Source: an uncultured Acidobacteriota bacterium (GTDB lineage Bacteria > Acidobacteriota > Vicinamibacteria > Vicinamibacterales > CAVVIG01). From it: a stretch of DNA of 64,000 bases. Position numbers and translations under genes: made by a program. The DNA is taken from positions 1,164,034 through 1,228,033 of the forward strand of contig CAWEDP010000002.1 of NCBI GenBank assembly GCA_963807925.1, in the 5' to 3' direction. The notes beneath the pieces are model-generated. The model was not told the DNA's origin. It saw only the letters and a program-made list of their open reading frames with translations, and searched no databases. Of the stretch, positions 21,458 to 36,027 are shown one piece after another. Position 1 is the first letter of the stretch; every line of letters begins with the position of its first letter.

Positions 21458-22891
21458 TCACGACGGTCCCCGGAAGCCGAGCGCGACGGCTCTGGCGAAC
21501 AGGGCGGCGGCCACCCAGCCGAGCACGACCGCCGCCGGAATCGTGAACGCCCTGGGCCACACCAACAGCGCGCCGGCGGCCGCAAGCAACGCCGTCGCGG
21601 CACCGGCCATGACCCGAGCTTCCGCGGGGCCGAGCACGCGACGGCTGGTGATCGCCGCGCCGACGGTGCTGCCGACGCCCAGAACGCCGGCCGCCGCGCG
21701 CCGCGCGCGCCCCGCCCTGCGGGTGTCCGACGGTGTCGGTCCTGGCGTTGTCGTGGTGCTCAGACGCACGTGTCTCCGGGCGGTGATCACGACTTCGGTC
21801 GCGTGCGTGAGGTCGTCCAGGTACATGGTCTCCATCGCCCTGGCGAACGTCTCGTCCTCGATCGCGACGTCCAGCTCCCAGTTGCTCATCCAGCTGGCCA
21901 GGTTGAGGTTCGTGGACCCCACACGGCCCCAGCGCGAGTCGGCCACGGCGGTTTTCGCGTGGAGCATCGTGCCATTCCACTCGAAGATGCGGATGCCGGT
22001 CTCGAGCAGCGGCCGATAGCTCGCACGGGAAATCGATCGGATCACGGGCACGTCGCTGGCGCCCGGGACGAGCAGGCGAACATCGACACCGTCGAGCGCC
22101 GCGGCTTTCAGCGCCTGCGTGTAGGCCGTCGTCGCCACGAAGTAGGCATCGGTCAGCCACAGCGAGCGTTGCGCGCCGGCGGCGATGAGCTGATCCAGCC
22201 GGTAGAGCTCCGCGGCGACCGGCGTGCCCGCCACCACCCGCACCGGCACCGGGCCCTCGACCGGGACGGCGGCCCGCTCCGTCAGCTCGGCGGGCGGAAG
22301 GGGCGCGCCCGCATGCGCCCACGTCTCGGCGAACGCCAGATCCAGATCCGCGACGGCCGGTCCGGCGATCGCCACGCCGACGTCACGCCACGGCTCGACG
22401 TGGCGTGACGGATCCCCGACCCACGCGCGACCGACGCACAGACCGGACACGAAGCCGACCCGCCCGTCCACGATCACGACCTTGCGGTGATCGCGGCTGA
22501 TCCACGCGAAGGGGCGATCAGGCCGGGGCGGATTGAACAAGCGGACGTCGACCCCCGCCGCCCTGAGCCGCGACCACACGCGTCGCGAACCTGCATGCAA
22601 GGACCCGAACCAGTCGCACAGGCAGCGCACGCGCACGCCGGCGCGCGCGCGCTCGGCCAGCGCGTCAGCGAACCGAACCCCGACCTCGTCGCCGTGGATA
22701 ATGTAGGTCTCGAAATGGATCGTGTCGGTCGCCGAGCCGATCGACTCGAGCCACGCGGCGTAGTTCTCGCCGTCTTTCAGAATCCGCACGGCGTTGCCGG
22801 GCACCAGCGGCGCGCCGGCAGCACGCGCGAAGGCGCGGTCGCCGAGCGCTCGGACGGAGGGCGGCGGCGGAAACGGCCCGGTATCAGGCAT
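21458..22891 (-). CDS. Phospholipase-D-family protein (cardiolipin-synthase-like) with C-terminal membrane segments
   Basis: Two HKD motifs ([20 protein letters not shown] and [20 protein letters not shown]). Start taken at ATG 22891, because the divergent gene begins at 23126. Confidence 0.8.
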
Positions 22892-23125
22892 GGCTTTGCG
22901 ACCGTCAGTGGTCGTCGCGTCGCGTCGCTGCCGACGGGCGGCAAGGCGGCGCCACGAGGGCAGGCTGCTCCACGGACGTCGCAGGTCCTGATTGTGGATC
23001 AACCCTCGCAGGGGTTCGTCGAGTACGTGTTCGGGCAACTGGTGCGATGGGGCCGGCGAGCTCTGGCCGGCGACCGACGCCGACGCGTCGGTTGCCGTAT
23101 GCTCTGATGACATTCGAGGAGAGCC

Positions 23126-23522
23126 GATGCCGACGCCATCGCCGGAGCGCCGATACGAGTTCAGTCCAGACCAGAACGCCATCTTCTCCAGGCTCGCCGG
23201 GGCGATGCGGTTTGTCGCGATCGTCATGGTGCTGGCGAGCGGGACGGTGGGCATCGCTGCAGTGTTCATCGGTCGATCGACGGTGGTCGGGGCCGCGATG
23301 GTCGCTCCGTTGGCAATCGCCGTCGCGTTCCTGGCCGCGCAGCTCTATCAGGCGGCCACCCACTTCCGGCGAATCGTGAGCACTCGGGGGAGCGACGTCG
23401 AGCACCTGATGGCGGCGCTCGACGAGATGGCGAACGCCTATCTCACGCAGCGGTGGCTGTGGATAGTCGCCGCGGTCGCGATCCTGCTGGCTCTGGCCAC
23501 GACGATGGCCGTCGGTTCGTGA
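23126..23522 (+). CDS. Small integral membrane protein, unknown function
   Basis: GAGGAG SD at 23115-23120. Three hydrophobic segments ([55 protein letters not shown]). Confidence 0.5.
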
Positions 23523-30234: not shown

Positions 30235-30286
<52 letters not shown>

Positions 30287-30470
30287 TGAGCCTCACCGAT
30301 TTGCAAACGATTTCGCATCTCTCCGGACTCGGGTCGCAACCGGGTAGCGGCTCGGAAGTGCCAGCGGCCCACCTTAGCCGGCCATCGCCGACATGGTGAA
30401 CGCGAGACCCGAAGACGCAACACGCGGGCCAGCTTGTTACCCCACGCTGCGCGGTGCTACTGTGATCGCT

Positions 30471-30695
30471 ATGACATTGAAGGCTCGAGTGAAGGCCGGC
30501 CGGCTGGTCGTTGACGAACCCACAGACCTGCCCGAAGGAACGGAAATCGAGCTGCTGGCTCTCGATCCCGGAGATTGGCTCGACGAGGACGATCGTGCCG
30601 CCTTGCATCGGGCTCTGAAAGAATCCGACGAAGACATCAAGGCGGGCCGTCTCATTGACGCGGACGTGATCCTTCGCGAACTTCGATCGCGTTGA
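30471..30695 (+). CDS. Antitoxin of a ParE/RelE-type TA pair
   Basis: Start at ATG 30471 (MTLKARVKAGRLVVDEPTDLPEGTEIELL...). The N-terminus looks like an AF2212/DUF104-type antitoxin. The C-terminus (DRAALHRALKESDEDIKAGRLIDADVILRELRSR) is ParD/addiction-module-like. Its stop overlaps the toxin start (TTGA). Confidence 0.6.
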   Translation: MTLKARVKAGRLVVDEPTDLPEGTEIELLALDPGDWLDEDDRAALHRALKESDEDIKAGRLIDADVILRELRSR

Positions 30696-30991
30696 AGAAC
30701 CGCCGCGTCCGCTTCACAGCCACTGCGCAGGAACACGTTCGGCGGGAGGAGGCCTGGTGGCTGGCCAATCGCGACCACCCCGACGTGTTCGCCGAGGAAC
30801 TCCAACAAGCGCTCCAGATCATCACGGCGCTTCCGGGTGCCGGAACTCTCTACAATCAGTCGTCCTCTCCCGGCGTCCGCCGCGTCTACCTCAGGAGACT
30901 CGCCGCCCATCTCTATTACACGTTCGACGACACCAGGGTGATCGTTCGCGCTCTCTGGGGCTCGCGTCGCGAACGCGGCCCGCGGATTTGA
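30692..30991 (+). CDS. RelE/ParE-family toxin
   Basis: TTG start overlaps the antitoxin stop. ...VRRVYLRRLAAHLYYTFDDTRVIVRALWGSRR is a typical ParE C-terminus. Confidence 0.7.
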   Translation: MKNRRVRFTATAQEHVRREEAWWLANRDHPDVFAEELQQALQIITALPGAGTLYNQSSSPGVRRVYLRRLAAHLYYTFDDTRVIVRALWGSRRERGPRI

Positions 30992-31108
30992 CGTTCAACG
31001 GTGTGATGACTGCGACCATGGCGGTCCGAGCATGGCCCCGCGACGGGTTCAAGCCTGACGTTCATTGTGTGGGCGGTCACCCTCAAGTAACCTTGTTCGC
31101 ATTCCCTG

Positions 31109-34100
31109 ATGTCCGACGACAAGGATGACCTTCCTTTCGGTCTCTACGAGCGGCTTGTTACAGCCGGCCTGAAGGCGCGACTCCTCCGTTTCGATTCCAA
31201 CACCGCCCGCATCGTCAAAAGGCAGATCGATCCCACCGAGGCGTACGCCACGCTGGCCCGGCACGTCGCACACGTTGTGGCGCGTGCACTCAAAGCTCTC
31301 CCTGAACATGACCGCACCGCCGCACAATCCGAGCTGACCAATCAAGTCATCGGCTGGCTTGCCGCCCATTCAGCTGACGCCACGACTCACGAAGACCTGG
31401 TTGAAATCCCGCCCGAAGAACTTCGGGCCATTCAGGCCATCGGCCACATGCCGAATGCGGATCGGGACGTGGTCGCGCCCTTGGTCGCCCTGTCCGCGTC
31501 AGACCTCCTGGTCAACGCACGCGGCGAGCCCGGCCTCGCCCACGCGCTGGCGCACGAGATTCCGTCCGCCGACTCCATCGACCTGCTGTGCGCCTTCGTG
31601 CGATGGCATGGGTTGCGGCTACTTGAGGATCAACTCGGGGCGCATTGCCGGGCGGGCAAGCGGCTACGCGTGATCACGACCGTCTTCACCGGATCGACCG
31701 AACGCAAAGCGCTCGATTGGCTGGTGGCGCGCGGCGCGCAGGTCAAGGTCTCGTACGACACTCAGTCCACCCGCCTCCATGCGAAGGCGTGGCTCTTCCG
31801 CCGCGCCACCGGCTACTCCACCGCTTACATTGGCTCGTCAAATCTGTCGAAGTCGGCGCTCGTGGACGGTGTCGAGTGGAACGTGCGTCTGTCGCAGGTG
31901 GGCTCGCCGGACATCCTCGAGAAGTTCGATGGCACGTTCGACACGTACTGGGAAAGCCCCGAATACGAGTCTTATGAACCGAAACGGGATGCCGCTCGAT
32001 TCGATCGGGCTGTCGCGCCGCAACAAGGCGAATCGCTTGAGGCGCCGCTCCTCTTCCTTGACGTCGAACCCTGGCCACATCAGCGCGAGATGCTCGAGAA
32101 GCTCGCCGTCGAGCGCGAACGGCATCACCGCTTCAAGAATCTTGTCGTTGCCGCCACAGGCACCGGCAAGACCATCGTGGCCGCGCTGGATTACAAGCGC
32201 CTGTGCGATCAGCACGGCGATCTACGCTTGTTGTTTGTCGCGCATCGACAAGAAATCCTGAAACAGAGCCTCGGCGCGTTCCGCCAGGTCCTGCGGTCCG
32301 GGGATTTCGGCGAGCTCTACGTGGACAACCATCGGCCCGAAGAGTGGCGCCACGTGTTTGCGTCCATTCAATCGCTCGCACAGGTCGATCTCGACCTGCT
32401 CGATCCGGCCGCCTTCGACGTCGTGATTGTCGACGAATTTCATCATGCGGCGGCGCCGACGTATCGACGGCTGCTCAAACATCTCTTCGACCGCGAGGAG
32501 GCCCACTCGCTTACACAGCCGCCGAGAGTCCTTCTGGGTCTTACCGCCACGCCGGAACGCACCGACGCCGACGACATCCTTCACTACTTCGACAATCACA
32601 TCGCGGTGGAAATGCGGCTCTGGGACGCGCTCGAGCGTGAGCTGCTTTGCCCGTTCCAATATTTCGGGCTGCACGACAACACCGACTTGTCGTCGGTTCG
32701 GTGGTCCCGCAAGGGCTACGACAGGGCGGAGCTCGAGCGCCTGTACACGGGAGACGATGCGCGGGTGAGACTGGTGCTGGAGCAGGTGCGGCAGAAGCAC
32801 CGCGATGTGGGGACGATGCGCGCGCTCGGGTTCTGCGTGAGCATTGCGCACGCAGAGTTCATGGCACGGCGGTTCACCGAGGCGGGGCTTCCATCGGTGG
32901 CTGTGTCCGCTGACACCGACAGCGACAAGCGAAAGGACGCTCTGGCGTCGCTGCGGACGGGGCGGGTGCGAGCCCTCTTCGCGGTGGACCTGTTCAACGA
33001 GGGTGTCGATCTCCCGGAAGTCGACACGCTGCTCCTTCTACGGCCGACGGAGAGCGCCCTGGTGTTTCTCCAGCAGCTCGGGCGCGGGCTGCGACGCCAC
33101 GAAGGAAAAGACTGCGTCACCGTACTGGACTTCATCGGCCAGTCGCATCGGCAATTCCGCTTCGACCTGCGCTATCGCGCGGTCACGGGGACCACGCGGA
33201 CCGAAGTCGAGAAACAGGTGCAGCTCGGTTTTCCATTCCTGCCTGCGGGCTGCTCGATGCAGTTGGATCGCGTCGCCACCCAGATCGTCCTCGACAATCT
33301 GAAAAGCGCTGTCCCCTCGCGTCGTCCCGCGATGGTGCGGGAATTGAAGGCGCTCGCTGAGGCCCGTTCGGCTTCCGGACGTCGCATCACGCTTGCCGAG
33401 TTCCTTCAGGAGGCAGGGCTCGACCTGGACGACGTGTACCGCTCCGGCAGTTGGTCGGGCCTGCAACGTGACGCGGGCCTCAAGGTGCCCGCTCCGGGGC
33501 CACATGAAACGCTGATCGGCGATCGGCTGGCCGGCATTCTGCACGTGGACGATCCGCTTCGGCTCGGTGCCTATGAACACCTTGCGGCATCGGCATCGGT
33601 GAGCGCGATGTCGGACGCCGACCGCCGCCTCATGACTGGCTTTCACTTCGCCGTGATCGCTTCTAACATTGCACCCGAGACACTCGCGGAGTCGGTCGCG
33701 CTTCTTCGCGCACATCCTGCCATCGTCGAAGAGCTGCGCGAGCTGCTTCCCTTGCTCGACGAGCGGTCGGAGCATCTCACCTATCCGCTCGACCTTGCCC
33801 AGCCTGCCGGATCGCCAGTCTGCGTCCCTCTGTCCGTGCACGCGCGCCACACAGTGGACGATGTGCTCACGGCGTTCGGGATAGTGGATTTCAATAAAAC
33901 CGTGTGGAAGCAGACGGGTACCATCCGAGACGAGGGGACGAACTCGGACCTGTTCTTTGTGACACTCGAGAAGTCCGAACGCGAGTATTCGCCGTCCACG
34001 CTGTACAAGGACTATGCGATTTCTCCCACGCTGTTCCATTGGGAGTCGCAGTCGACCACCACGCAGCGGTCGAAAACGGGGCAGCGCTACATTCATCACC

Positions 34101-34294
34101 GGAACCGTGGCGGCAACATCCTGCTGTTCGTGCGTCCACGAAAGAAGAACGAGGGCCGCACGATGCCATACACGTTTCTGGGCCCTGCAGACTACGTCTC
34201 GCACAAGGGCGATCGGCCAATCAGCTTTGTGTGGAAATTGCGGAGGCCGATGCCCGCGGATTGCTTCCGGCAGGCGAAGGTGGCCAGCGGCTAA
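31109..34294 (+). CDS. PLD-like (single HKD, NucT-type) nuclease + SF2 DEAD/DEAH-box helicase + C-terminal DUF3427 domain protein
   Basis: HKD: H224-A-K226...GSSN245 (nt 31778-31843). Walker A AATGTGKT (K354, nt 32150-32173). DEFH (nt 32432-32443). TATPER. Helicase-C block FAVDLFNEGVDLPEVDTLLLLRPTES...QQLGRGLR. C-terminal ...FFVTLEKSEREYSPSTLYKDYAISPTLFHWESQS...ILLFVRPRK...YTFLGPADY matches my memory of DUF3427. Confidence 0.85.
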   Translation: MSDDKDDLPFGLYERLVTAGLKARLLRFDSNTARIVKRQIDPTEAYATLARHVAHVVARALKALPEHDRTAAQSELTNQVIGWLAAHSADATTHEDLVEIPPEELRAIQAIGHMPNADRDVVAPLVALSASDLLVNARGEPGLAHALAHEIPSADSIDLLCAFVRWHGLRLLEDQLGAHCRAGKRLRVITTVFTGSTERKALDWLVARGAQVKVSYDTQSTRLHAKAWLFRRATGYSTAYIGSSNLSKSALVDGVEWNVRLSQVGSPDILEKFDGTFDTYWESPEYESYEPKRDAARFDRAVAPQQGESLEAPLLFLDVEPWPHQREMLEKLAVERERHHRFKNLVVAATGTGKTIVAALDYKRLCDQHGDLRLLFVAHRQEILKQSLGAFRQVLRSGDFGELYVDNHRPEEWRHVFASIQSLAQVDLDLLDPAAFDVVIVDEFHHAAAPTYRRLLKHLFDREEAHSLTQPPRVLLGLTATPERTDADDILHYFDNHIAVEMRLWDALERELLCPFQYFGLHDNTDLSSVRWSRKGYDRAELERLYTGDDARVRLVLEQVRQKHRDVGTMRALGFCVSIAHAEFMARRFTEAGLPSVAVSADTDSDKRKDALASLRTGRVRALFAVDLFNEGVDLPEVDTLLLLRPTESALVFLQQLGRGLRRHEGKDCVTVLDFIGQSHRQFRFDLRYRAVTGTTRTEVEKQVQLGFPFLPAGCSMQLDRVATQIVLDNLKSAVPSRRPAMVRELKALAEARSASGRRITLAEFLQEAGLDLDDVYRSGSWSGLQRDAGLKVPAPGPHETLIGDRLAGILHVDDPLRLGAYEHLAASASVSAMSDADRRLMTGFHFAVIASNIAPETLAESVALLRAHPAIVEELRELLPLLDERSEHLTYPLDLAQPAGSPVCVPLSVHARHTVDDVLTAFGIVDFNKTVWKQTGTIRDEGTNSDLFFVTLEKSEREYSPSTLYKDYAISPTLFHWESQSTTTQRSKTGQRYIHHRNRGGNILLFVRPRKKNEGRTMPYTFLGPADYVSHKGDRPISFVWKLRRPMPADCFRQAKVASG

Positions 34295-34403
34295 CGATCT
34301 CCGCCACGTCCGCGGCGACAGCCAAGCCCGCAATCTTCGGTGGCTTACGACGCTCGGGTAGCAACGAAATCGGACAAGAGCCGGGGCACATTCGTCAGAA
34401 CTC

Positions 34404-35115
34404 TCAGTGGGCGGAAGCTCCACAGCATCTCTTGTACTTTCGCCCACTGCCGCACGGACATGGATCGTTCCGCCCGATTTTGACGCTCCGGCGTGGGGAA
34501 CGTTCGACCGCCGCTTGCTCTGCGAGCACTTGAGAAATCGATCGGCCGAAGTGCGCGTACTCCGCGACAGCATTCGGAAACACTCGGCGGATCGTCGTCG
34601 CGAGGACTTCCAACGTCTTGTCGGCGGCGCTCTCCTTGCGGAACGCTTCTGCGATGTCTCGCGACGCGAAGAAGCTCAAGGCCAACAACGTCGCCGCGAA
34701 CTGGTCATCGAGGTCTTCCGGGATGTACAGAATCCCAGACATCCTCGAGCCAGGTGTGACCACGCATGAAGCCACGCGACCATTGACTGACCGGCGCGTC
34801 GGGAGCCAGGTTGGCAAGAACATCGTCACGGAAGACACAATCAGCTGGCACAGCAGCCGTCTCGCCGATGACGCTGGCATTGACCGCGTTGTAGAGCGAC
34901 ATGAGGTCGCCCAAGACGCGTCTGGCTTCGTCGACACTCGTGTAGTCCGGTTCGGTGTCGCCAAAAACCAGCGGCATCCACTCCGACGGTGGGATTAACT
35001 CGGGCGCGCTCGCGACTGCAAGAAGAAACCCTTGAAGTTCGTGATACCGGAGCGTGTCAGCCGGCCGCGCGGGATCGTCCAGAAACGCTTTCAACGATTC
35101 GTTGCGAACCTGCAC
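34404..35115 (-). pseudogene. YecA/UPF0149-family protein with C-terminal SEC-C motif, split by one frameshift (or a sequencing error)
   Basis: The N-terminal part is in ORF 34705..35115 (GTG start; [31 protein letters not shown]). The C-terminal part is in ORF 34404..34964 (...[19 protein letters not shown]). The frames meet at the C3 run 34734-34736. Deleting one base gives ...[18 protein letters not shown]..., about 236 aa. Confidence 0.6.
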
Positions 35116-35129
35116 GGCACCGGCCCGCT

Positions 35130-35402
35130 TTACCGACTTGCGGCACGCTTCACATCGCGTGGGAGTTCTTCCCGGAGAACCCGTCGAAGAGTCGCCTCGA
35201 GCGGTTCGCGTTTCACCTGAACGTACTCGCGTAGAGCCGCATTGATCAGGGTCTGATAACTTCCTCCGCCGGCCGCGTGCACCTGTTTCCGGAACCAGTG
35301 GAGCAGATCATCGTCGATGCGGATCGTGATCCGAGTCTTCCCCGGCGGAGTCTTCAACACCGCGCCGCGCCTTCCATGGCTGAAGTCGTAGTGTGTCTTC
35401 AT
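35130..35402 (-). CDS. brnA: BrnA-type antitoxin (ribbon-helix-helix)
   Basis: Start ATG 35402 (MKTHYDFSHGRRGAV...ITIRIDDDLLHWFRKQ...YQTLINAALREYV). ATGA overlap with brnT. Confidence 0.75.
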   Translation of the reverse strand: MKTHYDFSHGRRGAVLKTPPGKTRITIRIDDDLLHWFRKQVHAAGGGSYQTLINAALREYVQVKREPLEATLRRVLREELPRDVKRAASR

Positions 35403-35674
35403 GCTTTGCTTCCGTACTGTTCGCGTTCTTTCGGCTCGGCTTTTCGAGCGGATATCAGCCGCGGCCGATCGCCCCGCCATGTGTACACGACGACGACCAC
35501 GTTTCCGAGGGCGTCCATGCCGACGGTGATGTAGCGTTCCTCACCTTCAGCATCCTCTCGAATGGTAACGGCGTGCTCGTCATGCAGTACCGTGGCCGCA
35601 TCGGCGAAATCGACGCCGTGCTTCTTGAGGTTCGCGGCCGCCTTCCGAGGGTCCCACTCGGCATCGTCGCCCAT
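35399..35674 (-). CDS. brnT: BrnT-type toxin (DUF497 ribonuclease)
   Basis: EWDPRKAAANLKKHGVDFADAATVLHDEHAVTIREDAEGEERYITVG...ISARKAEPKERE is the typical BrnT pattern. Confidence 0.8.
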   Translation of the reverse strand: MGDDAEWDPRKAAANLKKHGVDFADAATVLHDEHAVTIREDAEGEERYITVGMDALGNVVVVVYTWRGDRPRLISARKAEPKEREQYGSKA

Positions 35675-35714: not shown

Positions 35715-35894
35715 CCTCACGACCGCTCCGTCGGGTAGCGTCAGGGTAGTACGGACCACTGTGTCCAACCCGATCAGTGCTGTGGCTCGAGCGGCCTGGA
35801 ACGCCCGTGATGGTGCAGACGGACCGGATTTGGACTTCAGGTCACTCGGTCAGAAACCAAGTGACCGGCACACTTAACGGAAAATCGCCGCTCG

Positions 35895-35949: not shown

Positions 35950-36027
<78 letters not shown>

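What the first reader, a model, noticed from the sequence alone, without database searches (positions are those of the whole stretch)
31109..34294. TA-flanked 1061-aa PLD-nuclease / SF2-helicase / DUF3427 protein: candidate single-gene defence module
The largest island gene fuses three parts:
- a single-HKD NucT-like PLD domain (H224, K226, GSSN242-245);
- a complete SF2 helicase core (Walker A K354, DEFH, TATPER, QQLGRGLR);
- a ~180-aa C-terminal region that matches my recollection of DUF3427, whose function is unknown.

Nuclease-helicase fusions on mobile islands flanked by toxin-antitoxin pairs are a recurrent signature of anti-phage systems. Established analogues with other domain combinations include the PLD+helicase of type II Mokosh and helicase-nuclease proteins such as Hna. 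To my knowledge this exact architecture has no demonstrated function, but I cannot verify that here. The roughly 140 N-terminal residues before the PLD domain also match nothing I recognise.
Basis: partly seen in the sequence, partly recalled or inferred. Interest (0 to 1): 0.7.

Follow-up and report, generated by a model that had tools for sequence, protein, structure and literature searches.

The report
SauUSI-type methylated-DNA restriction enzyme gene
The 1061-residue gene is a relative of SauUSI, a well-studied bacterial enzyme that uses ATP to shred foreign DNA carrying methylated cytosines, so it is a real defence gene of an already known kind, with one uncharacterised extra domain at its front end.

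Summary
The architecture is not uncharacterised. It is that of SauUSI, the ATP-dependent Type IV (modification-dependent) restriction endonuclease of Staphylococcus aureus.

- PADLOC's Type IV methyl-directed REase model matches at E=2.4e-267.
- A family profile aligns end to end with the SauUSI crystal-structure sequence 7CLG (E=5e-149).
- The AlphaFold model's best PDB match is 7CLG.
- The four mutationally validated SauUSI nuclease residues and all ATPase motifs are invariant in 67 homologues.
- DUF3427 is SauUSI's SRA-like reader of 5mC/5hmC, and most of its modelled pocket is conserved.

The gene sits in a 5.7-kb low-GC islet bounded by a 52-nt repeat of the tRNA-Pro 3' half. With it are a probable ParDE pair, a SEC-C protein and BrnTA. 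No DNA methyltransferase was found nearby.

The one non-standard feature is a conserved N-terminal domain of about 125 residues. SauUSI lacks it, and it has no Pfam or PDB match. It might explain why N-terminally short constructs of the Streptomyces relative ScoA3I were inactive; I could not test this.

Verdict: new member of a known kind, low interest.

The parts
30235..30286 (.). Left islet boundary: a displaced copy of the 3' half of tRNA-Pro (att-like direct repeat)
   Evidence: It is a 52-nt direct repeat, 98% identical to 35950-36001. Related genomes carry the same fragment (L013, L022, L003).
30471..30695 (+). Candidate antitoxin (74 aa) of a ParDE-like pair
   Evidence: Its stop overlaps the start of the ParE-like ORF by 4 nt. 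It has no Pfam, NCBIfam or PADLOC match. The assignment rests on position only.
30692..30991 (+). ParE-like toxin candidate (99 aa)
   Evidence: Pfam ParE_toxin matches residues 6-93 to model positions 1-87 of 89 at E=0.0098, 16.9 bits, below the cutoff of 23. There is no PDB or NCBIfam match. In 6 related MAGs it is inherited together with the restriction gene at 84-92% nt identity.
31109..34294 (+). SauUSI-family Type IV modification-dependent restriction endonuclease, 1061 aa
   Evidence: PADLOC mREase_IV E=2.4e-267. 7CLG matches at E=3.3e-85 with the single sequence and E=5e-149 with the family profile. The Foldseek top hit is 7clg_A at E=1.1e-37. dN/dS is 0.08-0.17.
31109..31498 (+). Clade-specific N-terminal domain (aa 1-130), absent from SauUSI, function unknown
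   Evidence: It is present in all 67 full-length homologues, with G11 invariant and Y13 invariant or nearly so. It has no Pfam hit, no meaningful PDB sequence hit and no PDB fold hit (best E=5). The AF2 model of the domain alone has pLDDT 82.7. dN/dS is 0.24-0.31, the fastest-evolving part of the protein but still under purifying selection.
31499..32038 (+). Single-HKD PLD nuclease domain (aa 131-310)
   Evidence: H224, K226, N245 and E256 correspond to SauUSI H119, K121, N139 and E150 and are invariant in 67 of 67 homologues. The SauUSI residues were validated by mutagenesis (PMC3141236).
32066..33178 (+). SF2 DExH helicase-like translocase (aa 320-690)
   Evidence: Pfam ResIII and Helicase_C. 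K354, D442, E443, H445, T479, T481, Q655, R659 and R662 are invariant.
33179..33808 (+). Alpha-helical coupler (aa 691-900)
   Evidence: It is helical in the AF2 model. It aligns to the SauUSI coupler (residues 618-805) within the continuous profile match. It has no Pfam hit of its own.
33809..34291 (+). DUF3427 / SRA-like target-recognition domain (aa 901-1061)
   Evidence: Pfam DUF3427 E=1.6e-22. It aligns to the SauUSI TRD. G937, Y966, D968 and W978 are invariant and F950/V951 nearly so. SauUSI Y831 and M829 correspond to T938 and T936.
34404..34964 (-). SEC-C-motif protein (186 aa): separate cargo, not part of the conserved cassette
   Evidence: Pfam SEC-C E=1.4e-10. PADLOC candidate system PDC-S12 E=1.2e-9. 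It is absent from the related loci L013, L069 and L008.
35130..35480 (-). BrnA antitoxin
   Evidence: Pfam BrnA_antitoxin E=2e-13. The true start is probably the ATG at 35403, which overlaps the BrnT stop; this is read from the sequence.
35399..35674 (-). BrnT ribonuclease toxin
   Evidence: Pfam BrnT_toxin E=1e-27. A sigma-70-like promoter match lies at 35714-35686 on the minus strand.
35951..36027 (-). tRNA-Pro(CGG). Its 3' half (35950-36001) is the right-hand repeat and the integration site
   Evidence: ARAGORN. Rfam tRNA, 64.5 bits. Repeat family D1.

Best explanation
The gene encodes a SauUSI-family Type IV (modification-dependent) restriction endonuclease, carried as cargo of a small integrase-less islet at tRNA-Pro.

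The mechanism below is inferred by homology to SauUSI.
1. Two subunits dimerise through their single-HKD PLD domains and form one nuclease site.
2. The C-terminal SRA-like DUF3427 domain scans incoming DNA and flips a modified cytosine (most likely 5mC or 5hmC) into a pocket.
3. Recognition is passed through the helical coupler and switches on the DExH motor.
4. The motor translocates on double-stranded DNA and extrudes loops.
5. The PLD site cuts repeatedly, so the modified DNA is shredded.
6. Host DNA escapes because it lacks the modification, so no partner methyltransferase is needed.

What is shown here:
- the domain order;
- end-to-end homology and fold match to SauUSI;
- conservation of all catalytic and ATPase residues and most pocket residues;
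- purifying selection;
- the mobile context;
- the absence of a nearby methyltransferase.

What is inferred: the activity itself, the modification recognised, its sequence context, and the role of the extra N-terminal domain. My guess for that domain is a regulatory or assembly module packed against the nuclease. The flanking TA pairs most likely stabilise the islet and do not take part in restriction.
For: Family assignment:
- PADLOC mREase_IV PDLC03659 hits at E=2.4e-267 over residues 121-1054. The SauUSI-length model PDLC03658 hits at E=9.7e-82.
- phmmer against PDB sequences gives 7clg_A (SauUSI) at E=3.3e-85.
- A profile of 21 diverse homologues gives one continuous match, profile positions 126-1013 to SauUSI 29-919, at E=5e-149.
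- Foldseek of the AF2 model puts 7clg_A first at E=1.1e-37 over 955 columns. The next hit is RadD at 7e-14.

Active-site conservation:
- H224, K226, N245 and E256 correspond to the mutationally validated SauUSI H119, K121, N139 and E150 (PMC3141236).
- These four residues, the Walker A lysine, DExH, motif III and motif VI are invariant in 67 of 67 homologues.
- In the TRD, D968 (SauUSI D858) and W978 (W868) are invariant. F950 (F841) and V951 (I842) are conserved in at least 90%.

Selection and context:
- dN/dS is 0.08-0.17 against six relatives.
- No DNA methyltransferase lies within 9 kb, and no C5-methyltransferase motif IV occurs in any long ORF of the window.
- The islet is bounded by the tRNA-Pro repeat and has lower GC.
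- The cassette is 84-92% identical to related MAGs whose core flanks are only 66-80% identical.
- Homologues occur in at least six phyla in varied neighbourhoods. Neighbours include TIR, AbiEii, HNH, BrxH, DrmD, DpdF and further mREase_IV paralogues.

Mechanism of the reference enzyme: PMC3141236, PMC7913695, bioRxiv 10.1101/2025.10.16.682607.
Against: - Identity to SauUSI is low: about 30% by tblastn over the PLD-helicase region and 22% over the structural alignment.
- Two residues of the modelled SauUSI pocket are not kept. Y831, the proposed methyl contact, is T938 here and mostly V in the family. M829, the proposed intercalating residue, is T936. Those SauUSI roles come from a docking model, not from mutagenesis. 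The modification or its sequence context may therefore differ.
- The acidic residue of HxK(x)4D/E (SauUSI E126) is R231 here and varies across the family (H 25, R 23, Q 9, E 4 of 67).
- The Streptomyces relative ScoA3I gave no activity in vitro or in E. coli (PMC6765204). Activity of this branch is supported only by an in vivo report in S. lividans.
- The ~125-residue N-terminal domain has no counterpart in SauUSI, and its function is unknown.
Confidence: 0.85

Rival explanations
1. Same enzyme class but a different target. The TRD may read a modification other than 5mC/5hmC, such as another hypermodified pyrimidine, N4-methylcytosine or a glucosylated base, or it may read 5mC in a quite different sequence context from S5mCNGS.
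For: SauUSI's proposed methyl-contacting Y831 is T938 here (V in 48 of 67 homologues, R in 7). The proposed intercalating M829 is T, E or A. The loop between the conserved G937 and F949-F950 varies greatly in sequence and length across the family. Some relatives carry tandem paralogues in which a different C-terminal domain replaces DUF3427, which suggests that the reader domain diversifies.
Against: The cytosine-specific D968 and the stacking W978 are invariant, together with Y966 and G937. The relative ScoA3I was reported to restrict Dcm (5mC)-modified plasmid about 1000-fold in S. lividans (cited in PMC6765204 and PMC3874153). The other tested DUF3427 proteins bind 5mC/5hmC (PMC6765204).
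Confidence: 0.25
2. The large protein and the adjacent ParDE-like pair form one functional unit. In this reading the TA acts as a sensor or effector in a TA-coupled, abortive-infection type of defence, not as a mere neighbour.
For: The antitoxin/ParE-like pair and the restriction gene travel together at 84-92% nt identity in six related Vicinamibacterales/Acidobacteriota MAGs (L003, L008, L011, L013, L022, L069). They lie on the same strand with a 117-nt gap.
Against: More distant homologues (73-80% nt identity and below) share only the gene itself, with unrelated neighbours. No TA family appears among the 25 Pfam families most often matched by 128 immediate neighbours of 32 diverse homologues. 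SauUSI works alone both in vitro and in E. coli (PMC3141236). The ParE assignment is itself weak. The BrnTA/SEC-C segment is absent from the related cassettes.
Confidence: 0.07
3. It is a housekeeping DNA-repair or recombination helicase-nuclease (RadD- or XPB-like), not a defence enzyme.
For: The helicase core resembles RadD (PDB 6jde, E=5.8e-20; NCBIfam RadD, 102.8 bits). The family is present in more than 100 Micromonospora species at nearly constant length, which looks vertically inherited in that genus.
Against: The RadD score is far below the NCBIfam cutoff (102.8 against 720), and the match covers only the motor. RadD has neither a PLD nuclease nor an SRA-like reader. In this window the gene sits in a low-GC islet bounded by a tRNA repeat, and it is more conserved than the core flanks. 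Neighbourhoods elsewhere vary and are rich in defence genes. SauUSI is likewise widespread in staphylococci (PMC3141236) and is a restriction enzyme.
Confidence: 0.04
4. It is a decayed or inactive remnant: a nuclease-dead relic that no longer restricts.
For: The acidic residue of the HxK(x)4D/E motif is replaced by R231. ScoA3I, which has a similar change, was inactive in vitro (PMC6765204). The islet has lost its integrase. Several of the closest relatives (L003, L008, L013, L019) appear as interrupted ORFs.
Against: The 1061-codon ORF is intact. dN/dS is 0.04-0.09 in the PLD domain and 0.05-0.15 in the motor. All other catalytic and ATPase residues are invariant. The R/H/Q substitution is a trait of the whole family, not a private lesion. 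The interrupted relatives may reflect indel errors in the assemblies; the type of read is my assumption from the isolate names, not shown by a tool.
Confidence: 0.06

Closest known systems
SauUSI (Staphylococcus aureus USA300; PDB 7CLG), an ATP-dependent Type IV restriction endonuclease
   Same: It has the same single-chain order: PLD nuclease, SF2 DExH motor, helical coupler, SRA-like DUF3427 TRD. The alignment is continuous over SauUSI residues 29-919. SauUSI is the top fold match. The four catalytic residues and the ATPase motifs are identical. Neither has a cognate methyltransferase.
   Different: Identity is only about 22-30%. This protein has an extra conserved N-terminal domain of ~100-125 residues. 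SauUSI E126 is R231 here. Pocket residues Y831 and M829 are T938 and T936. The host is an Acidobacteriota bacterium (Vicinamibacterales-like) and the gene sits in a tRNA-Pro islet. In staphylococci SauUSI is widely conserved (PMC3141236).
ScoA3I (Sco2863) of Streptomyces coelicolor, a SauUSI-family member with genetic evidence only
   Same: It is listed next to SauUSI and its staphylococcal homologues among Type IV enzymes (PMC3874153, Table 1). Lutz et al. report 'strong protein homology to SauUSI' (PMC6765204). The PADLOC model that this protein hits best has 945 positions, the annotated length of Sco2863; that the model is built on ScoA3I is my inference. Both lack the Asp/Glu of HxK(x)4D. 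Actinobacterial homologues of the window protein are 45-50% identical to it.
   Different: I could not retrieve the Sco2863 sequence, so direct identity and the presence of the N-terminal domain were not tested. The ScoA3I constructs of 945 aa and 945+46 aa were inactive in vitro and in E. coli (PMC6765204).
DUF3427-PD-(D/E)XK fusions (McaZI, BwiMMI, EfaL9I, YenY4I)
   Same: They share the DUF3427 reader domain. They bind 5mC/5hmC DNA and restrict phage T4gt, and they are often found in defence islands (PMC6765204).
   Different: They have no helicase motor and no PLD domain. Their nuclease is PD-(D/E)XK, and they are not expected to depend on ATP.
McrBC and Type I / Type ISP restriction motors (EcoKMcrBC, HsdR, LlaBIII)
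   Same: The working logic is the same: an NTP-driven translocase couples recognition at one place to cleavage at another. The motor resembles HsdR and LlaBIII.
   Different: McrBC is a GTP-dependent AAA+ two-protein system. Type I and ISP enzymes carry or need a methyltransferase and cut unmodified DNA. None of them has a PLD nuclease or an SRA-like reader.
Other PLD+helicase defence proteins (Mokosh type II, PbeA, NgoAVII/CglI, 'PLD-helicase' anti-phage protein NF042964)
   Same: They combine a PLD nuclease with an SF2 ATPase.
   Different: PADLOC and NCBIfam scores are weak and cover only the shared domains: PbeA 1.7e-34 against mREase_IV 2.4e-267, PLD_Helicase 0.005, and NF042964 25.8 bits against a cutoff of 1100. 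No Mokosh or Hna model is among the 25 best PADLOC matches listed. As far as I know these proteins lack a DUF3427 reader; I did not check this with tools.

Membership tests
SauUSI-family Type IV restriction endonuclease | Single polypeptide with the order PLD nuclease, SF2 ATPase, coupler, DUF3427/SRA-like TRD | tested here: met
   Pfam domain order. Continuous profile alignment to SauUSI 29-919 at E=5e-149. Foldseek top hit 7clg_A at E=1.1e-37 over 955 columns.
SauUSI-family Type IV restriction endonuclease | PLD catalytic residues H119, K121, N139 and E150, each essential in SauUSI | tested here: met
   The corresponding H224, K226, N245 and E256 are invariant in 67 of 67 homologues. Mutagenesis data are in PMC3141236.
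SauUSI-family Type IV restriction endonuclease | Acidic residue of 119-H(X)K(X)4E-126 | tested here: not met
   The position is R231 here and varies across the family: H 25, R 23, Q 9, E 4, Y 3, D 1. This residue was not among the four mutated in SauUSI.
SauUSI-family Type IV restriction endonuclease | Intact SF2 DExH ATPase motifs (Walker A lysine, DExH, motif III, motif VI) | tested here: met
   K354, DEFH 442-445, TAT 479-481 and QQLGRGLR 655-662 are present and invariant in the family.
SauUSI-family Type IV restriction endonuclease | SRA-like pocket for a flipped 5mC (SauUSI M829, Y831, F841, I842, D858, W868, from a docking model) | tested here: inconclusive
   D968, W978, F950 and V951 are conserved. 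Y831 corresponds to T938 and M829 to T936. The residue roles in SauUSI were modelled, not mutated.
SauUSI-family Type IV restriction endonuclease | No cognate DNA methyltransferase | tested here: met
   The ten flanking genes within about 9 kb are housekeeping. The five small islet ORFs were scanned individually, and those with a match are TA or SEC-C families. No xPCQ motif occurs in any long ORF of the 64-kb window (a crude scan). The rest of the genome was not available.
SauUSI-family Type IV restriction endonuclease | ATP-dependent cleavage of modified DNA but not of unmodified DNA | not testable with these tools
   This needs biochemistry or in vivo restriction assays.
SauUSI-family Type IV restriction endonuclease | Dimerisation through the PLD domains | not tested
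   Only a monomer was modelled.
PADLOC RM Type IV (mREase_IV) | Significant full-length match to an mREase_IV model | tested here: met
   PDLC03659 at E=2.4e-267, residues 121-1054 to model positions 14-937 of 945.
Mokosh type II / Hna / PLD-helicase anti-phage protein | Match to the family's own profile | tested here: not met
   No Mokosh or Hna model is among the 25 best PADLOC matches listed. PLD_Helicase reaches E=0.005. NF042964 scores 25.8 bits against a cutoff of 1100.
RadD DNA-repair helicase | Score above the NCBIfam equivalog cutoff | tested here: not met
   102.8 bits against a cutoff of 720. The match covers residues 325-685 only.
Type I / Type III restriction R subunit | Profile match above the cutoff and a partner methyltransferase or specificity subunit | tested here: not met
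   EcoAI-type R subunit scores 77.6 bits against a cutoff of 550. No methyltransferase gene is nearby.

The most novel reading that the evidence does not exclude
The conserved N-terminal domain of about 125 residues (an invariant glycine in the GLYE motif at residues 11-14, then two long helices) may be an essential module that defines a large N-extended branch of the SauUSI family, found in Acidobacteriota, Actinomycetota, Myxococcota, Planctomycetota, Gammaproteobacteria and Bacillota.

If so, it could explain an open discrepancy in the literature. ScoA3I (Sco2863) restricted Dcm-methylated plasmid about 1000-fold when cloned in S. lividans. It was dead when expressed from a 945-aa ORF (TTG start) or from a version 46 aa longer (PMC6765204). 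By alignment to the 945-position PADLOC model, those starts would fall near residues ~108 and ~62 of this protein. Both constructs would then lack the GLYE motif and part of the domain.

On this reading the 'lost Asp' that was blamed for the inactivity is a normal trait of the family.
Probability: 0.3. Interest if true: 0.4.

Novelty: new member of a known kind. Interest (0 to 1): 0.2.

Why it matters
Mainly as a correction. The gene should be annotated as a Type IV (SauUSI-family) restriction enzyme, not as a 'DUF3427 domain-containing protein' or 'helicase', and it should not be treated as a candidate new defence system.

- It is a likely barrier to methylated DNA in soil Acidobacteriota, which matters to anyone trying to transform such organisms.
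- The small open point is the N-terminal domain. It is specific to a large, phylogenetically broad branch of the family and has no known fold relative.
- That domain suggests a concrete, cheap experiment: full-length against N-truncated constructs. The result could resolve why ScoA3I looked inactive.

Tried and rejected
1. Looking up the exact protein in the assembly index found nothing, so the source genome was identified only by relatives (Vicinamibacterales/Acidobacteriota MAGs, up to 95% identity).
2. N-terminal domain, all negative or uninformative:
   - Pfam at E<=1 gave nothing.
   - A profile against PDB sequences gave only designed helical repeats.
   - The AF2 model of residues 1-135 searched against PDB with Foldseek gave a best E of 5.
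   - The whole-library representative search gave 251 hits. Almost all lie at the N-terminus of short, probably fragmentary proteins, and no other architecture was evident.
3. I tried to retrieve Sco2863 to test the truncation idea. A search with an actinobacterial profile returned mostly Micromonospora, with some Actinoallomurus and Actinomadura, and no Streptomyces. The paper's supplements are not held.
4. A TA-coupled system was rejected as the main reading, because ParDE is linked only in close relatives and BrnTA/SEC-C is absent from the related cassettes.
5. Mokosh, Hna, PbeA, RadD and Type I/III assignments were rejected on scores.
6. The Rfam scan of the islet found only the tRNA. The promoter and terminator scan did not exceed the shuffled expectation.
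7. The neighbour survey gives family tallies, not a statistical test of enrichment.

Full report
**Observation.** The ORF is exactly as described. It runs 31109..34294 on the + strand, from ATG to TAA, and encodes 1061 aa. ATG 31109 is the first possible start after an in-frame stop at 31088. All cited motifs are at the cited residues: HAK 224-226, GSSN 242-245, GTGKT 351-355, DEFH 442-445, TATPER 479-484 and QQLGRGLR 655-662. Pfam finds PLDc_2 (173-281), ResIII (320-484), Helicase_C (570-663) and DUF3427 (908-1055). Nothing in Pfam matches residues 1-135, even at E<=1.

**What it is.** PADLOC's 'Type IV methyl-directed restriction enzyme' model PDLC03659 matches at E=2.4e-267 over residues 121-1054. 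The sister model PDLC03658, which has 953 positions (the length of SauUSI), matches at 9.7e-82. Against PDB sequences the best hit is 7clg_A, the SauUSI crystal structure, at E=3.3e-85. A profile built from 21 homologues sharing 36-71% identity (A1) aligns to SauUSI in one continuous stretch, profile 126-1013 to SauUSI 29-919, at E=5e-149. That stretch covers the nuclease, motor, coupler and TRD. An AlphaFold2 model (pLDDT 73.6) has 7clg_A and 7clg_B as its top Foldseek matches (1.1e-37, 955 aligned columns). The next match is RadD at 7e-14, on the motor only.

SauUSI cleaves 5mC- and 5hmC-containing DNA at S5mCNGS in an ATP-dependent way. It needs no methyltransferase, blocks methylated plasmids in S. 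aureus and restricts phage in E. coli (PMC3141236). Its DUF3427 region is an SRA-fold TRD joined to the motor by a helical coupler, and it dimerises through the PLD domains (PMC7913695). Single-molecule work shows 5mC-triggered directional translocation, loop extrusion and repeated cleavage (bioRxiv 10.1101/2025.10.16.682607). The architecture therefore has a demonstrated function, and DUF3427 has a known role.

**Residue-level check.**

| SauUSI residue | This protein | Conservation in 67 full-length homologues |
|---|---|---|
| H119, K121, N139, E150 (each essential by mutagenesis, PMC3141236) | H224, K226, N245, E256 | invariant |
| Walker A lysine | K354 | invariant |
| DExH | D442, E443, H445 | invariant |
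| motif III | T479, T481 | invariant |
| motif VI | Q655, R659, R662 | invariant |
| D858 (TRD pocket) | D968 | invariant |
| W868 (TRD pocket) | W978 | invariant |
| F841 / I842 (TRD pocket) | F950 / V951 | at least 90% |
| Y831 (proposed methyl contact) | T938 | V in 48 of 67 |
| M829 (proposed intercalating residue) | T936 | T, E or A |
| E126 of H(X)K(X)4E | R231 | variable: H 25, R 23, Q 9, E 4 |

G937 and Y966 in the TRD are also invariant. The SauUSI pocket roles come from a docking model, not from mutants. I therefore read the class of enzyme as secure and the exact modification and sequence context as open.

dN/dS against six relatives is 0.08-0.17 overall, so the gene is under purifying selection. 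By region it is 0.04-0.09 in the PLD domain and 0.24-0.31 in the N-terminal domain.

**Context.** The gene lies in a 5.7-kb islet.
- GC is 0.621 against 0.675 and 0.690 in the flanks.
- No ORF in the islet has host-like GC at the third codon position (GC3).
- The islet is bounded by a 52-nt direct repeat, 30235-30286 against 35950-36001, 98% identical.
- The right copy is the 3' half of tRNA-Pro(CGG) at 35951-36027.
- None of the islet ORFs scanned matches an integrase family.

The cargo, in order:
1. an antitoxin-like ORF and a weak ParE-like ORF (30471-30991);
2. the restriction gene;
3. a SEC-C-motif protein that hits PADLOC candidate PDC-S12;
4. BrnA/BrnT.

The ten flanking genes are housekeeping. 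They include SurE, an MFS transporter, radical-SAM/MoaA enzymes, an aldo-keto reductase, an outer-membrane barrel protein and a two-HKD PLD enzyme. None is a methyltransferase. A crude scan finds no C5-methyltransferase motif IV in any long ORF of the window.

Six related Acidobacteriota MAGs carry the antitoxin/ParE/restriction cassette at 84-92% nt identity. In several it sits directly next to tRNA-Pro(CGG), without the SEC-C/BrnTA segment. Their core flanks are only 66-80% identical. The cassette is thus a mobile unit, and this tRNA is a hotspot that accumulates cargo.

More distant homologues share only the gene, and their neighbours vary: TIR_2 and HTH proteins in L001, and AbiEii, DUF559 and AEP proteins in L002. 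I surveyed 128 immediate neighbours of 32 diverse homologues. Five are further mREase_IV paralogues, and others hit HNH, PDC-S01, PDC-S07, MkoA, BrxH, DrmD, DpdF and mad2 models. Ordinary metabolic genes also occur. This is a tally, not an enrichment test.

The family is very large: at least 8000 database hits. It spans at least six phyla and occurs on megaplasmids. It appears genus-wide in Micromonospora. SauUSI is similarly widespread in staphylococci.

**The N-terminal domain.** SauUSI aligns only from its residue 29 to about residue 126-132 of this protein. This branch therefore has about 100 extra residues.
- They are present in all 67 full-length homologues, down to 36% identity.
- G11 is invariant and Y13 is invariant or nearly so within a GLYE motif, followed by two long helices.
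- Modelled alone, the domain reaches pLDDT 82.7.
- In the full-length model it also shows three short strands.
- No PDB sequence or fold match exists.
- A whole-library search found the domain essentially only at protein N-termini.
- Its function is unknown. My guess is a regulatory or assembly module next to the nuclease.

**A lead from the literature.** ScoA3I (Sco2863) of S. coelicolor is listed next to SauUSI among Type IV enzymes, with in vivo evidence for 5mC restriction (PMC3874153). Lutz et al. purified a 945-aa version (TTG start) and a version 46 aa longer. Both were inactive in vitro and in E. coli, although the gene cloned in S. lividans restricted Dcm+ plasmid about 1000-fold. They blamed a missing Asp in HxKxD and left the discrepancy open (PMC6765204, section 22).

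The PADLOC model that this protein hits best has 945 positions, and its position 14 aligns to residue 121 here. If that model reflects the annotated Sco2863, both constructs lacked most of the conserved N-terminal domain. The 'missing Asp' would then be a trait of the family. I could not obtain the Sco2863 sequence, so this remains a hypothesis.

**Verdict.** It is a new member of a known kind, and standard tools already assign it to RM Type IV. Interest is low. The modest residual interest lies in the N-terminal domain and in the uncertainty over target specificity.

Noticed in passing
window 34404-34964 (-): A 186-aa protein ends in a SEC-C metal-binding motif (Pfam E=1.4e-10). Residues 87-181 match PADLOC candidate defence family PDC-S12 (E=1.2e-9). 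It lies in a 1.65-kb segment together with BrnTA. That segment is absent from related cassettes, so it may be a separate small defence or addiction cargo.
   Followed up: partly
window 35811-35862: This is a degenerate third copy (62%) of the tRNA-derived repeat. Read on the minus strand, by eye, it looks like the 3' part of a different tRNA: an anticodon-loop-like CTG and a terminal CCA. ARAGORN and Rfam do not call it. It may be the scar of an older or imported att site.
   Followed up: partly
window 30235-34312 compared with L013, L069, L008, L003, L011, L022: The ParDE-like + restriction cassette is 84-92% identical between MAGs whose flanking core genes are only 66-80% identical. This points to recent horizontal spread. 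In L003 the tRNA fragment lies downstream of the gene and about 6.9 kb of other DNA separates it from tRNA-Pro, which looks like tandem accretion at the hotspot.
   Followed up: partly
L078 4954-7962 and L080 5082-7970 (Oceanisphaera): Immediately upstream of the homologue lies a second PLD + SF2-helicase paralogue. Its C-terminus matches Peptidase_S24-like (E about 1e-5 to 1e-6) instead of DUF3427. This may be a tandem pair of SauUSI-like enzymes with different reader domains.
   Followed up: partly
L063 and L075 (same contig CAVYQC010000003.1): Two full-length family members lie about 15 kb apart in one Acidobacteriaceae MAG.
   Followed up: no
proteins P0345-P0460: The family occurs in well over 100 Micromonospora species and strains at nearly constant length (1019-1032 aa), annotated only as 'DUF3427 domain-containing protein'. 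This suggests stable, genus-wide retention of a Type IV enzyme.
   Followed up: no
window 21458-23269 (-): The host-composition flank carries a 603-aa protein with two PLD/HKD domains (PLDc_2 E=8.4e-33), which looks like cardiolipin synthase. It is a housekeeping PLD and is unrelated to the islet nuclease.
   Followed up: no
L003, L008, L013, L019: Several of the closest relatives of the gene appear split or truncated, with alignments starting at query residues 95, 178 or 287, or ending at 873. Whether this reflects assembly indel errors or real pseudogenes was not resolved.
   Followed up: no
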